Assembly: GCA_965199265.1 (NCBI GenBank)
Contig: CBDAQV010000001.1
Location: forward strand, 444,409 to 508,408
Origin: Alphaproteobacteria bacterium
Lineage (GTDB): Bacteria; Pseudomonadota; Alphaproteobacteria; CALMVH01
Length of the DNA stretch: 64,000 bases
Direction of reading: 5' to 3'
Shown here: in pieces, positions 39,746-42,700 of the stretch
Position numbering within the stretch: the first letter of the stretch is position 1
Layout of the letters: every line of letters begins with the position of its first letter
Made by a program: the position numbers

Positions 39746-42700
39746 GGAGAAGCCGACGTTCAGCGCCCGGCGCTGCATTTCGTCGGTGATACCCAGCATT
39801 TTCGTCTTGGCTTTCAGCAGGCGCAGGAACTGGATGCCGTCCAGTTCCTGTTCCCCCCGCGCCTTGCGCACCGAGTTCAGCGCGGTGCGCAGGAAGGTGG
39901 TGGTCGGCACGCCTGGGATCTCGACCGGATACTGGAAGCCGAGGAACAGCCCCTTGGCCGCGCGTTCCTCCGGCGCCAGCGCCAGGATGTCCTCGTCGTC
40001 CAGCGTCACGCTGCCTTGCGAGATCTCGTACCCCTCTCGCCCGGCGAGGATGTAGGACAGCGTCGACTTGCCCGAGCCGTTCGGCCCCATGATGGCGTGC
40101 ACTTCCCCCGTGGGCACTGTCAGGGAAAGGTCCTTGAGGATGGCGCGGTCGCCGACGGAGACGGAGAGGTTGGTGATGGTGAGCATTGTTATTAGTTGGG
40201 CTGCTTGTTGGCGCGACGATATACAGCCGCCGCGCGTAAGTTGGTATAACACATCCAGACCAGGAACAGACTAGCCGCGACTGCAAAACCCTGTGCTCCC
40301 GGCCAGACGATCGGGGCAAAGCACAGTCCGGCCAGAAACAGCATCCACACGGCAGCTTCAATATGCTGAGCATAAGTTCTGCCCGCTATGTAAGACGTGT
40401 ACTGTACCAGTACCCTTGCGCGACCTTCACACCGTTGTTTGCACGCAAGACCGAACCGCAATTCGGTCGCGGCCTCCCGGCTCAGGGCTCGAAAACAATG
40501 ACGGCAGAGCCCAACCGCAGGCTGCGAAGGATTGTAGAAGCAGTTCATCACCCGACGCTCCCCTCGAGCGAAATCCCGATCAGCTTCTGCGCCTCGACGG
40601 CGAACTCCATCGGCAGTTGCTGCATCACCTCGCGGCAGAAGCCGTTGACGATCAGGGACACCGATTCTTCCTGGCTGATGCCGCGCTGGCGACAGTAGAA
40701 CAGCTGGTCTTCGCTGATCTTGGCCGTGCTGGCTTCGTGCTCGATGGTCGCGGTCGGGTTGCGGCTTTCGATGTAGGGCACGGTGTGTGCGCCGCACCGG
40801 TCGCCCATTAGCAGGCTGTCACACTGCGTGTAGTTTCGCGCGCCGTCGGCCTTGGGCAGGATGCGGACCAGGCCGCGATAGGTGTTCTGGCCGCGCCCAG
40901 CGGAAATGCCCTTGGAAACAATGCGCGAGCGCGTGTTCCTGCCGATGTGGATCATCTTGGTGCCGGTATCGGCCTGCTGCCAGTTGTTGGCGATGGCGAC
41001 CGAATAGAACTCACCGACCGAGTTGTCGCCCTGCAGGATGCAGGACGGGTACTTCCAAGTGATCGCCGAGCCGGTCTCCACCTGGGTCCACGAGATCTTC
41101 GAGTTCCGGCCGCGGCACGCGCCGCGCTTGGTCACGAAGTTGTAAATGCCGCCAAGGCCGTTCTCGTCGCCCGGGTACCAGTTCTGCACGGTCGAGTACT
41201 TGATCTCGGCGTCGTCCAGCGCCACAAGCTCGACCACAGCGGCGTGCAGCTGATTCTCGTCGCGCTTGGGCGCGGTGCAGCCTTCGAGGTAGGAGCAGTA
41301 CGCCCCCGCCTCGGCGACGATCAGCGTGCGTTCGAACTGGCCGGTGCTGGCGGCGTTGATGCGGAAATAGGTGGAAAGCTCCATCGGGCAGCGCACGCCC
41401 TTGGGGATGAAGACGAATGACCCGTCGGTGAACACCGCCGAGTTCAGGCAGGCGTAGAAATTGTCGCTGGTCGGCACGACGGTGCCGAGGTATTTGCGCA
41501 CCAGCTCCGGGTGCTCCTGGATCGCCTCCGAGATCGGGCAGAAGATCACGCCGGCCTCGCCCAGCTTCTTCTTGAACGTGGTCGCGACCGAGACGCTGTC
41601 GAACACCGCGTCGACCGCGACGGTCGGCTCGACGCCCGCCAGCAGCTCCTGCTCGCGGATGGGGATGCCCAGCTTCTTGTAGGTTTCGATCAATTGCGGA
41701 TCGACCTCATCCAGGCTCTGCTTCTTCGGCATGTTCTTCGGCGCGGCATAGTAATACGCGTCCTGGAAGTCGATGGGCGCGACGTTCAGCTTGGCCCAGT
41801 CCGGCACGGTCATCTGCCGCCACGCGCGGAACGCGTCGAGGCGCCATTGCAGCATCCACTCCGGCTCACTCTTCTTTGCCGAGATGAAGCGGACGATGTC
41901 CTCGTTCAGCCCTTTCGGGGCGGTATCCATTTCGATTTCGGTGACGAAGCCGTACTTGTACTTCTCGTCGATCGCCGCCGTCAGGATTTCGTCAGTTTCG
42001 ATCCGCTCTTCCATCACGCCGTTTCCCTTTCCAGCCCGACCTCGGCTACCGCAAGGCGGGGCCGGTCCATGGGCTCAGCCATTTCCGCAAGGCTGACCGC
42101 TTCCAGCGCGTCGCGAATGGCGTCGTTGATCCTGTTCCAGTTGCCGCGCACCGAGCACGACTGCTCCGCCTCGCAGCCGCTATTGCCCTCGACGCAATCG
42201 GTCAGCGCAATCGGGCCTTCGACTGCGGCGATCACGTCGGCGACTGAGATATCGTGCGCCGGCCGTGCCAGCCCGTAACCTCCGGCGATGCCGCGCTGCG
42301 ATGTCACAATCCCGCCCCGCGCCAGCACCTTCATCAGCTTGGCGACCGTCGGCTCGGGCACGCCGCTGCGCCGCGCCAGCACGCACGCGCTCAGCGCACC
42401 GGGCGAGCGGGCCAGCTCGCACAGCGCCACGATGGCGTAATCGCTGAGTTTGGACAAACGTATCAAGGGTTTCCGCAAAGCAGACTAAACTGGTCCTGTT
42501 TATCTATCCCGCCAGCCGGGAAGTCAAGTACAAGGAGGCCGTCATCCCGGGCAAGGCGAAAGGTCTACGCCAAGCCGATGATGGTACTGAAACCCTTTTT
42601 CTTCTGGAAATGCGGAAGCAAGATCCTTCGCCTTGCTCAGGATGACAATCAGGTCACCAGCGCCTGTTGCAGCGCGTGCGCGACGCCGATCAGCTTGAGC

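What the first reader, a model, noticed from the sequence alone, without database searches (positions are those of the whole stretch)
40192..40548. Translationally coupled zinc-ribbon / two-TM micro-protein between sufB and sufC
The sufB stop and this ORF's ATG share a nucleotide (TGATG), and sufC begins 6 nt after its stop. It is therefore an integral operon member, not an intergenic artefact. The N-terminal 45 residues carry a C-x12-C-x2-C ... C-x3-C arrangement, compatible with a zinc ribbon or a small Fe-S/metal site. Two hydrophobic helices follow. A membrane-tethered metal-binding accessory inside a cytoplasmic Fe-S assembly operon is not part of the canonical sufABCDSE/sufU/sufT set. 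I do not recognise the sequence as any named Suf component.
Basis: partly seen in the sequence, partly recalled or inferred. Interest (0 to 1): 0.55.

Follow-up and report, generated by a model that had tools for sequence, protein, structure and literature searches.

The report
Zinc-finger membrane protein in suf operon
The small gene wedged between sufB and sufC is real and encodes a membrane-anchored zinc-finger protein from a widespread uncharacterised family, but it sits in a slot that related bacteria fill with unrelated genes, so it is probably a lineage-specific passenger and not a new core part of the iron-sulfur machinery.

Summary
The ORF is real: window 40192-40548, minus strand, 118 aa. 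Its ATG overlaps the sufB stop (TGATG), and sufC starts 5 nt after its stop.

It is not an orphan. An exhaustive HMMER search found 366 relatives, nearly all 110-135 aa, with one architecture: an N-terminal B-box-like zinc finger (consensus C3 H6 C15 C18 C23 C26 C36 C40), a linker helix and a two-helix membrane hairpin. The window protein keeps one complete four-Cys site (C15, C18, C36, C40) and has lost three of the four ligands of the other site.

Its only close homolog (46% identity) occupies the same slot in the closest available relative (SufB 87% identical), with the same overlaps.

None of 77 other alphaproteobacterial suf loci carries it. Only 1 of 31 family loci checked with Suf protein queries is suf-linked; eight more places fetched by exact-sequence look-up show no suf genes on their gene tables.

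The sufB-sufC junction is a variable slot. It holds tautomerase, cupin, DUF29, DUF559, GIY-YIG, ParE and unnamed genes, and at least 15 of them use the same stop-overlap layout. sufC has no Shine-Dalgarno sequence of its own here, so tight coupling looks like a positional requirement and not evidence of Suf function.

Verdict: a real, selected gene, most likely a co-expressed passenger. Modest interest.

The parts
40192..40548 (-). orfX coding sequence, 118 aa plus stop TAA. It encodes a B-box-like zinc finger followed by a two-helix membrane hairpin.
   Evidence: Translation. Family membership (90.4 bits, E 8e-26). Syntenic homolog P0002 in L081.
40423..40548 (-). N-terminal metal-finger domain, residues 1-42. 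It keeps the full C15/C18/C36/C40 site. The second site of the family (C3/H6/C23/C26) is reduced to C3, with N6, S23 and A26.
   Evidence: Alignment A1. Ligand co-variation. AF2 pLDDT 96-98 with three short strands. dN 0.22 against the L081 homolog.
40363..40422 (-). Linker helix, residues 43-62, predicted to be continuous with the first membrane helix and cytoplasmic.
   Evidence: AF2 helix 41-77. Cytoplasmic placement is inferred from charge distribution.
40300..40362 (-). Transmembrane helix 1, about residues 63-83.
   Evidence: Kyte-Doolittle 19-residue windows reach 2.08. AF2 helix.
40237..40293 (-). Transmembrane helix 2, about residues 86-104, after the short WPGAQG turn.
   Evidence: AF2 helix 86-114. 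Kyte-Doolittle support is weaker here: windows 79-97 and 80-98 score about 1.5. The L081 homolog has its second hydrophobic segment at 90-108.
40195..40236 (-). Basic C-terminal tail, residues 105-118, containing R105, R111, R112 and K115. Together with the basic linker it suggests an N-in/C-in topology.
   Evidence: Read from the sequence. Topology is inferred from the positive-inside rule.
40558..40563 (-). Shine-Dalgarno-like GGGGAG inside the last codons of sufB (LEGSVG). It serves the orfX start here and the sufC start in relatives that have no insert.
   Evidence: Duplex energy with the anti-SD is -8.6 kcal/mol in the window and -12.0 in L081. Relatives without an insert are compared in the same call.
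40187..40191 (-). The 5-nt spacer TAACA between the orfX stop and the sufC ATG. There is no Shine-Dalgarno sequence upstream of sufC.
   Evidence: Sequence. SD energy is -0.8 kcal/mol. L081 has the equivalent spacer TAATC.
40548..42017 (-). sufB
   Evidence: NF008773, E 7e-275.
39431..40186 (-). sufC
   Evidence: TIGR01978, E 2e-105.
42014..42478 (-). Rrf2-family SUF regulator, the first gene of the operon. Its end overlaps the sufB start by 4 nt.
   Evidence: TIGR02944, E 5e-42.

Best explanation
orfX is a real, expressed small inner-membrane protein. It has a cytoplasmic N-terminal treble-clef/B-box-derived finger that retains a single four-Cys metal site (C15, C18, C36, C40), most likely binding zinc. 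A long helix joins the finger to a two-helix membrane hairpin.

It is a divergent member of a large, phylogenetically broad, uncharacterised family in which the finger normally has two cross-braced sites.

In the lineage of this window and of metagenomic contig L081, one family member was captured in the sufB-sufC junction. In Alphaproteobacteria this junction acts as a variable expression slot.

The gene is translated from the Shine-Dalgarno sequence embedded in the 3' end of sufB. Because sufC has no such sequence here, orfX passes ribosomes on to sufC by termination-reinitiation.

It is therefore co-induced with Suf, presumably under iron limitation or oxidative stress through the Rrf2 regulator. 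Its own activity is most likely that of a membrane-anchored protein-interaction or oligomerisation module that is not specific to Fe-S assembly.

**Shown:** gene reality, family membership, architecture, loss of one site, synteny with L081, variability of the slot, the Shine-Dalgarno pattern.
**Inferred:** zinc as the metal, topology, reinitiation, regulation, passenger status.
For: **Family and architecture**
- phmmer against 1.84 billion representatives gave 366 hits at E<=1e-3. Nearly all of the best 150 listed are 95-165 aa (one 2002-aa repeat protein excepted) and align from residue 1.
- Alignment A1 gives the consensus MxCFYHPxxxAVGxCKxCxRGLCxxCAxDxxxGLACKxRCE followed by two hydrophobic helices.
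- 60 of 109 members weakly match Pfam zf-B_box.
- 80 of 109 have all eight ligands. Loss of H6 tends to go with loss of C23 and C26 (about 12-14 sequences), while C15, C18, C36 and C40 stay. This fits cross-braced sites, with site 2 intact in orfX.
- AF2 mean pLDDT is 89.8.

**Conservation in the slot**
- P0002 (46% identity) lies in L081 behind Fur-amidase-Rrf2-sufB. It overlaps the sufB stop, and a sufC-like ORF starts 5 nt after it.
- SufB is 87% identical between the two loci, against at most 81-84% to any other locus.
- dN for the N-terminal domain is 0.22 while dS is saturated.

**Not Suf-specific**
- No family member occurs in 77 other alphaproteobacterial suf loci.
- Only L081 among 31 family loci has suf genes.
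- Other contexts are heterogeneous: STAS, dnaN-gyrB, mcsAB, ABM, isocitrate dehydrogenase, AI-2E transporter.

**The slot**
- The gap is <=30 nt in 20 of 77 loci and >=250 nt in 24 of 77.
- Cargo includes GIY-YIG, DUF29, DUF559, cupin, ParE, DUF4926, tautomerase and many unnamed genes.
- 18 ORFs of at least 60 aa fill at least 86% of the gap, and 15 of them start at the sufB stop.
- Extra ORFs between sufB and sufC are already reported in Caulobacter (PMC11475020) and Rhodobacter (PMC6956336).

**Translation signals and composition**
- SD energy is -8.6/-12.0 kcal/mol for orfX and -0.8/-1.7 for sufC, in the window and L081 respectively.
- GC3 of orfX is 0.60 against 0.72-0.91 for the suf genes. 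In L081 it is 0.41 against 0.84 for sufB.
Against: - The gene has been kept in the slot, with both couplings and the full four-Cys site, across a divergence at which synonymous sites are saturated. That shows selection for the protein and is also what a true Suf accessory would show.
- A Cys4 site inside an Fe-S assembly operon could bind Fe or a cluster instead of Zn. The metal cannot be determined from sequence.
- The sample of very close relatives is one contig, which ends 57 nt after the gene.
- No function is known for any member of the family, so the interaction-module reading is by analogy with B-box and other small zinc fingers.
- Foldseek found no significant structural match to a solved B-box.
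Confidence: 0.6

Rival explanations
1. orfX is a true lineage-specific Suf accessory. Its membrane hairpin tethers or recruits the SufBC2D scaffold to the inner membrane. Alternatively, its four-Cys site binds iron or a cluster (rubredoxin-like) and acts as an iron, electron or redox sensor or donor for assembly.
For: - The gene is conserved in the same slot, with the same couplings, in two lineages whose synonymous sites are saturated.
- The four site-2 cysteines are invariant or nearly so across the family and kept in both suf-linked members.
- The suf-linked pair shares a derived state, loss of site 1, with LSREAATE in place of LCxxCAxE. That could reflect specialisation.
- Other alphaproteobacterial isc-suf operons carry membrane proteins: the Yip1 family in Rhodobacter (PMC6956336).
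Against: - No other suf locus of 77 has a family member.
- Loss of site 1 is not specific to the suf-linked pair. About a dozen other sequences in the 109-sequence alignment show it too; the contexts of those particular sequences were not examined.
- The same coupled layout is used by clearly unrelated cargo, including nucleases and toxin genes.
- GC3 is far below that of the suf genes in both genomes.
- The membrane part evolves fast, dN 0.885.
Confidence: 0.2
2. The protein product is irrelevant. The ORF is kept only as a translational relay or spacer that passes ribosomes from sufB to sufC, or sets the SufB:SufC ratio.
For: - sufC lacks a Shine-Dalgarno sequence and starts 5 nt after the orfX stop in both genomes.
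- Many unrelated ORFs occupy the slot with the same geometry.
- orfX uses atypical codons.
Against: - The N-terminal 45 residues are far better conserved than a mere spacer would need: 29 of 45 identical, dN 0.22 with dS saturated, all site-2 cysteines kept.
- The sequence still scores E 8e-26 against the family profile.
- Hydrophobic hairpin architecture is kept.
- Twenty relatives do without any spacer.
Confidence: 0.07
3. It is a spurious ORF or an annotation artefact in an intergenic insert.
For: - The word-indexed homology search returned only the protein itself.
- GC content is lower than in the neighbouring genes.
Against: - There are 366 homologs with the same architecture.
- A syntenic homolog has an intact frame.
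- The AF2 model is confident.
Confidence: 0.01

Closest known systems
Unnamed bacterial family of about 110-135 aa proteins with an N-terminal B-box-like zinc finger and two TM helices (profile A1). Members are annotated only as hypothetical proteins, and some match Pfam PF00643 zf-B_box weakly.
   Same: - Same length.
- Same N-terminus starting at residue 1 (MNCFY..P..AVG.C..C).
- Same C15/C18/C36/C40-E41 site.
- Same linker helix and membrane hairpin.
- 90.4 bits against the profile.
   Different: - orfX lacks three of the four ligands of the first site (N6, S23, A26), like about 13% of the family.
- It is one of only two known members located in a suf operon.
Eukaryotic B-box domain (Pfam PF00643; TRIM and BBX proteins)
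   Same: - The spacing of the family consensus, C-x2-H-x8-C-x2-C-x4-C-x2-C-x9-C-x3-C, fits a B-box1-like cross-brace. This comparison rests on my knowledge of the B-box consensus.
- 60 of 109 relatives give weak PF00643 matches.
   Different: - orfX itself gives no PF00643 match at E<=1.
- It has only one complete site.
- It is fused to a membrane hairpin.
- No solved B-box appeared among the Foldseek matches.
Extra ORFs between sufB and sufC in other Alphaproteobacteria: the Caulobacter crescentus small ORF (PMC11475020) and Rhodobacter sphaeroides RSP_0439 (PMC6956336)
   Same: - Same position in the operon.
- Co-transcribed with the suf genes in Caulobacter (RT-PCR) and listed as part of the isc-suf operon in Rhodobacter.
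- Function unknown.
   Different: [quoted passage not shown]
- I could not obtain either sequence to compare.
- None of the junction ORFs in the 77 loci I examined matches the orfX family.
Yip1-family membrane proteins RSP_0433/RSP_0432 in the Rhodobacter isc-suf operon
   Same: They are membrane proteins of unknown role encoded inside an alphaproteobacterial Fe-S assembly operon.
   Different: They belong to a different family, sit at a different position in the operon and have no metal finger.

Membership tests
Bacterial B-box-like finger + 2TM family (profile A1, unnamed) | Full-length match to the family profile, beginning at residue 1 | tested here: met
   hmmsearch gives 90.4 bits, E 7.9e-26 (orfX is itself one of the 109 sequences in the profile). 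phmmer gives 366 hits, nearly all aligned from residue 1.
Bacterial B-box-like finger + 2TM family (profile A1, unnamed) | Linker helix followed by two hydrophobic helices; total length about 110-135 aa | tested here: met
   118 aa. Kyte-Doolittle hydrophobic windows fall at 63-83 and, more weakly, 79-98. AF2 helices at 41-77 and 86-114.
Bacterial B-box-like finger + 2TM family (profile A1, unnamed) | Eight metal ligands: C3 H6 C15 C18 C23 C26 C36 C40 | tested here: not met
   orfX has C3 N6 C15 C18 S23 A26 C36 C40. Site 2 is complete and site 1 is lost. 80 of 109 relatives have all eight, and about 14 share a similar loss. orfX is therefore a degenerate, single-site member.
Pfam PF00643 zf-B_box | Sequence match to the Pfam model | tested here: not met
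   No Pfam family at E<=1 for orfX. 60 of 109 relatives match weakly, best E 6.7e-5.
Pfam PF00643 zf-B_box | Fold similar to solved B-box structures | tested here: inconclusive
Canonical Suf components (SufA, SufE, SufU, SufT, SufR and others) | Match to a curated Suf family model | tested here: not met
   No NCBIfam or Pfam match, while all seven neighbouring genes match their Suf or Rrf2 models.
Canonical Suf components (SufA, SufE, SufU, SufT, SufR and others) | Recurrent association with suf operons across taxa | tested here: not met
   0 of 77 other alphaproteobacterial suf loci carry a family member. 1 of 31 family loci is suf-linked.
Plant-type/SdhB-type [2Fe-2S] motif (C-x4-C-x2-C-x~11-C) | Four cysteines with that spacing | tested here: not met
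   The family consensus C18-x4-C23-x2-C26-x9-C36 resembles it, but only insignificantly (E 0.11 against PDB SdhB; 3-5 weak NCBIfam hits). orfX lacks C23 and C26.
Zinc-binding anti-sigma factors (ZAS, zf-HC2) | H-x3-C-x2-C motif, a helical anti-sigma domain and an adjacent sigma factor gene | tested here: not met
   No Pfam zf-HC2 match. The neighbouring genes are suf genes and no sigma factor is adjacent.
Rubredoxin-like Fe(Cys)4 site | Iron bound by two Cys knuckles | not testable with these tools
   orfX has CxxC plus CxxxC. The identity of the metal needs biochemistry.

The most novel reading that the evidence does not exclude
The single-site, suf-embedded branch of this family (orfX and P0002) is a specialised membrane adaptor. 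Its four-Cys site binds iron or a cluster, or senses redox state, and it couples the cytoplasmic SufBC2D scaffold to the inner membrane. That would make it a previously unrecognised membrane-linked step in SUF assembly.

More generally, the sufB-sufC junction would be a translationally coupled expression slot into which Alphaproteobacteria repeatedly plug stress-induced cargo.
Probability: 0.12. Interest if true: 0.65.

Novelty: new member of a known kind. Interest (0 to 1): 0.3.

Why it matters
For SUF biology the result is mainly cautionary. Tight translational coupling inside the operon does not by itself mark a new Suf component, because the sufB-sufC junction tolerates many unrelated inserts that all adopt the same layout.

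Two things may be worth following up.

- **The family.** It is large (hundreds of 50%-identity clusters), taxonomically broad and entirely uncharacterised. It has no full-length Pfam or NCBIfam model and a clean pattern of one-site versus two-site variants.
- **The slot.** Its gene content differs even among loci of one genus, and it seems to require a ribosome relay from the sufB-embedded Shine-Dalgarno sequence to an SD-less sufC. That is a neat natural case of insertion constrained by translational coupling.

If the suf-linked branch did interact with SufBCD, it would add a membrane link to a pathway regarded as cytoplasmic.

Tried and rejected
- **Word-indexed protein search with orfX alone:** it returned only the protein itself and wrongly suggested an orphan. 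The exhaustive HMMER search overturned this.
- **Exact-sequence contig look-up for orfX:** nothing on record. The cluster is a singleton with no name.
- **Metagenome scan with orfX + P0002:** 27 loci of the broad family, no further suf-linked member.
- **Third profile search with A2:** again only orfX and P0002 in the close subclade.
- **NG86 dN/dS for orfX:** failed because synonymous sites are saturated. Only dN and the ML estimate are usable, and the ML dS values (about 14-15) are not reliable.
- **PDB sequence search:** only an insignificant resemblance to the SdhB 2Fe-2S motif. I rejected this as an explanation for orfX because C23 and C26 are absent.
- **PADLOC and PHROGs:** no defence or phage family.
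- **Viral contig scan:** it could not be run because the alignment lacks a sufficiently conserved stretch.
- **Rfam on the whole window:** no match.
- **Promoter and terminator scan:** counts do not exceed the shuffled controls. The one terminator-like match inside orfX (40518-40501) is a weak 5-pair stem with no proper T run, so there is no convincing internal signal.
- **Repeat search around the ORF:** no flanking direct or inverted repeats that would mark a mobile-element insertion.
- **Guilt by association across family contexts:** no consistent partner gene.
- **Enrichment of membrane proteins among slot cargo:** about 7 of 24, which on general knowledge is roughly the membrane-protein share of a bacterial proteome. 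I did not pursue it.
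Full report
**1. The observation**

The minus strand of window 40192-40548 carries a 118-codon ORF. Its ATG (40548-40546) shares one base with the sufB stop (TGATG). Its TAA stop (40194-40192) is followed by TAACA and then the sufC ATG at 40186.

All eight genes of the cluster lie on the minus strand:
- Rrf2-type SUF regulator, 42014-42478
- sufB, 40548-42017
- the ORF, called orfX here
- sufC, 39431-40186
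- sufD
- sufS
- sufU
- a DUF59/SufT-like gene

All but orfX match their curated models strongly. orfX matches no Pfam or NCBIfam model.

- 118 aa, not 117.
- C3-x11-C15, not x12.
- 5 nt to sufC, not 6.

Two hydrophobic segments follow the Cys-rich N-terminus.

**2. It is a real gene with a family**

The word-indexed search found only the protein itself, and its cluster is a singleton. An exhaustive phmmer search of 1.84 billion cluster representatives gave 366 hits at E<=1e-3. Nearly all of the 150 listed are 95-165 aa (one 2002-aa repeat protein excepted) and align from residue 1.

An alignment of 109 of them (A1) gives the consensus MxCFYHPxxxAVGxCKxCxRGLCxxCAxDxxxGLACKxRCE, then a variable linker and two hydrophobic helices. 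C18 and C36 are invariant. M1, C3, A11, C15, A35, C40 and E41 are nearly so.

orfX scores 90.4 bits (E 8e-26) against this profile, which includes orfX as its first row. A profile search of the 5.8-billion-cluster collection returned 427 members. All are unnamed or 'hypothetical', and they come from Acidobacteria, Verrucomicrobia, Desulfosporosinus and many metagenomes.

Sixty of the 109 members give weak matches to Pfam zf-B_box (best E 6.7e-5). orfX gives none. No NCBIfam, PADLOC or PHROG family covers them.

**3. Anatomy**

AlphaFold2 with A1 as the alignment gives a confident model, mean pLDDT 89.8 and 96-98 over residues 1-40. It shows three short strands (13-15, 27-30, 33-36), a long helix 41-77, a turn and a helix 86-114. 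Hydropathy puts the first membrane segment at about 63-83. A weaker second hydrophobic stretch (about 79-98) and the AF2 helix put the second at about 86-104, around a WPGAQG turn.

Basic residues lie in the linker and in the C-terminal tail. I therefore infer an N-in/C-in hairpin with the finger in the cytoplasm. This is an inference from the positive-inside rule.

The family consensus has eight potential ligands: C3, H6, C15, C18, C23, C26, C36 and C40. Across A1, 80 of 109 sequences have all eight. Where H6 is lost, C23 and C26 are usually lost with it (about 12-14 sequences), whereas C15, C18, C36 and C40 are essentially always kept.

This co-variation fits two cross-braced sites: site 1 = {3, 6, 23, 26} and site 2 = {15, 18, 36, 40}. 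The spacing matches a B-box1-like pattern, a comparison that rests on my knowledge of the B-box consensus.

orfX has N6, S23 and A26. It is therefore a single-site variant with site 2 intact.

A weak resemblance of the consensus C18-x4-C23-x2-C26-x9-C36 to the SdhB [2Fe-2S] motif is not significant (E 0.11; a few weak NCBIfam hits). It cannot apply to orfX, which lacks C23 and C26.

**4. Conservation at the junction**

The only close homolog is P0002 (123 aa, 46% identity, E 1e-22). It is encoded on a 4.5-kb metagenomic contig (L081) with the gene order Fur - amidase - Rrf2 - sufB - homolog. This matches the window's order upstream of orfX.

Its ATG overlaps the sufB stop (ATGA). Five nucleotides after its stop (TAATC) begins an ORF, MPEIKNLSALT..., which I read as a SufC N-terminus on general knowledge. 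The contig ends there.

| Protein | Identity between window and L081 |
|---|---|
| SufB | 87% |
| Fur | 66% |
| Rrf2 | 65% |
| amidase | 51% |
| orfX | 46% |

No other locus exceeds 81% (to the window) or 84% (to L081) for SufB. The two loci are therefore each other's closest relatives in the data, and a single ancestral insertion is the simplest reading.

Synonymous sites are saturated. dN is 0.22 for residues 1-45 and 0.885 for residues 46-115, compared with 0.098 for sufB, 0.32 for Rrf2 and 0.51 for the amidase.

The finger is thus clearly under purifying selection. The hairpin keeps its hydrophobic character, though not its sequence.

**5. Why the coupling does not imply Suf function**

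I fetched 80 alphaproteobacterial suf loci using SufC as the query. The closest has only 75-76% SufC identity, so this lineage has no near relative among species representatives.

In 77 loci where both genes are readable, the sufB-sufC gap ranges from about 0 to about 1770 nt:
- <=30 nt in 20 loci
- 31-100 nt in 14 loci
- 101-249 nt in 19 loci
- >=250 nt in 24 loci

None contains a member of the orfX family.

The gaps hold unrelated cargo:
- GIY-YIG nucleases
- DUF29 proteins
- a DUF559 endonuclease
- cupins
- ParE with an antitoxin
- DUF4926
- a 61-aa tautomerase in L001, the locus closest to L081
- REP-like repeats
- many proteins with no Pfam match, some of them membrane proteins

Eighteen ORFs of at least 60 aa fill at least 86% of their gap. 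Fifteen of these start at or overlapping the sufB stop and end within about 16 nt of the sufC start (most within 12 nt). This is the layout seen for orfX.

Content differs even among loci of one genus. Brevundimonas shows at least five states.

[quoted passage not shown] The Rhodobacter isc-suf operon also carries two Yip1-family membrane proteins (PMC11475020; PMC6956336).

**6. A mechanistic reason for the layout**

In relatives with no insert, the sufC ATG lies a few nucleotides after the sufB stop. It is served by the GGAG-like sequence encoded by the conserved SufB C-terminus (LEGSVG).

In the window and in L081 that Shine-Dalgarno sequence serves orfX instead, with duplex energies of -8.6 and -12.0 kcal/mol. 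The 20 nt upstream of sufC have none (-0.8 and -1.7 kcal/mol).

I therefore infer that sufC is translated by termination-reinitiation after orfX. I also infer that only inserts which take over the sufB-embedded signal and end next to sufC are tolerated, because anything else would be polar on sufCDS. This is an inference and has not been tested.

The promoter/terminator scan gives no convincing internal signal; its counts do not exceed the shuffled controls. No flanking repeats mark the insert.

orfX has an atypical composition in both genomes. GC3 is 0.60 against 0.72-0.91 for the suf genes in the window, and 0.41 against 0.84 for sufB in L081. This is consistent with foreign origin or weak codon selection.

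**7. Family contexts elsewhere**

Of 31 loci carrying a family member that were checked with Suf protein queries, only L081 has suf genes. Eight further places fetched afterwards show none on their gene tables.

Other members lie in varied settings:
- next to a STAS gene
- directly upstream of gyrB, in the dnaA-dnaN-gyrB cluster
- before mcsA/mcsB
- after ABM-domain genes, in two independent contexts
- next to isocitrate dehydrogenase, an AI-2E transporter or an FAD oxidoreductase

No partner recurs, so context gives no function for the family.

**8. Verdict**

orfX is a real, selected gene. It is a single-site, divergent member of a widespread uncharacterised family with a B-box-like finger and a two-helix membrane hairpin. 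It occupies a variable, translationally coupled slot of the alphaproteobacterial suf operon.

- **Most likely (confidence 0.6):** it is a co-expressed passenger. Its protein acts as a membrane-anchored zinc-finger interaction or oligomerisation module, and its reading frame also relays ribosomes to sufC.
- **Rival (0.2):** it is a specialised Suf accessory that tethers SufBC2D or binds or senses Fe or an Fe-S cluster. This remains possible because the gene and its four-Cys site have been kept in place over a long divergence.
- **Rival (0.07):** a pure spacer role is unlikely given the conservation of the finger.

The finding is a new member of known kinds: extra ORFs at the sufB-sufC junction, and bacterial B-box-like membrane proteins. 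Interest is modest, 0.3.

Noticed in passing
L001-L080 (sufB-sufC junctions), e.g. L001 3800-3985, L020 3516-4001, L011 3352-4008, L044 1403-1786, L061 3600-4001: The sufB-sufC junction of Alphaproteobacteria behaves as a variable slot. Of 77 loci, 24 have inserts of at least 250 nt carrying unrelated genes: tautomerase, cupin, DUF29, DUF559, GIY-YIG, ParE, DUF4926 and many unnamed ones. At least 15 of these genes start on the sufB stop and end next to the sufC start. Content differs even within Brevundimonas.
   Followed up: partly
window 39262-39430 (sufC-sufD intergenic region): Two inverted copies of a 25-nt REP-like motif, GGATCCCNGCCTTYGCNGGNATGAC, lie at 39280-39304 (-) and 39387-39411 (+). 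They fold into a long hairpin (dG -72.9 kcal/mol, z -4.25). These are the only two copies in the window. ORF translations with similar PAFAGMT/DPRLRGDD peptides occur in the sufB-sufC gap of L002, which may reflect a related palindromic repeat; the DNA was not compared. The true sufD start is probably the ATG near 39261 (MTLFPKT), not 39360.
   Followed up: partly
L040 3723-3989; L059 3261-3527; L075 2335-2664: A recurrent 88-109 aa two-TM protein occupies or lies within the sufB-sufC gap in one Kaistia and two Hyphomicrobiales-named MAG loci. Its N-terminus reads WF[KR]PKxxGYGAxPxxWxGW and its C-terminus W[RD]WRW. L040's copy has no Pfam match; the other two were not scanned. It is unrelated to orfX.
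   Followed up: no
L095 925-1305 with 1312-1707; L121 3583-3945 with 3942-4343 (also L122): In two different contexts a member of the B-box/2TM family directly follows an ABM (antibiotic biosynthesis monooxygenase-like) gene. The gap is 6 nt in one case and there is a 4-nt overlap in the other. This pairing might hint at the family's function.
   Followed up: no
L084 4549-4980 and 5001-5387; L114 4001-4387: Family members sit immediately upstream of gyrB inside the dnaA-dnaN-gyrB cluster, as a tandem pair in L084. This is another case of the family being embedded between housekeeping genes with very short spacers.
   Followed up: no
window 42649-44810 and L081 312-2128: A Fur-family regulator gene and an amidase gene lie directly upstream of the Rrf2-sufB operon in both the window and L081. 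The listed 280-aa Fur ORF in the window is probably over-extended at its 5' end: the homologous part is residues 155-280, and the L081 protein is 145 aa.
   Followed up: partly
window 1-64000: No Rfam family reaches its gathering score anywhere in the 64-kb window.
   Followed up: yes
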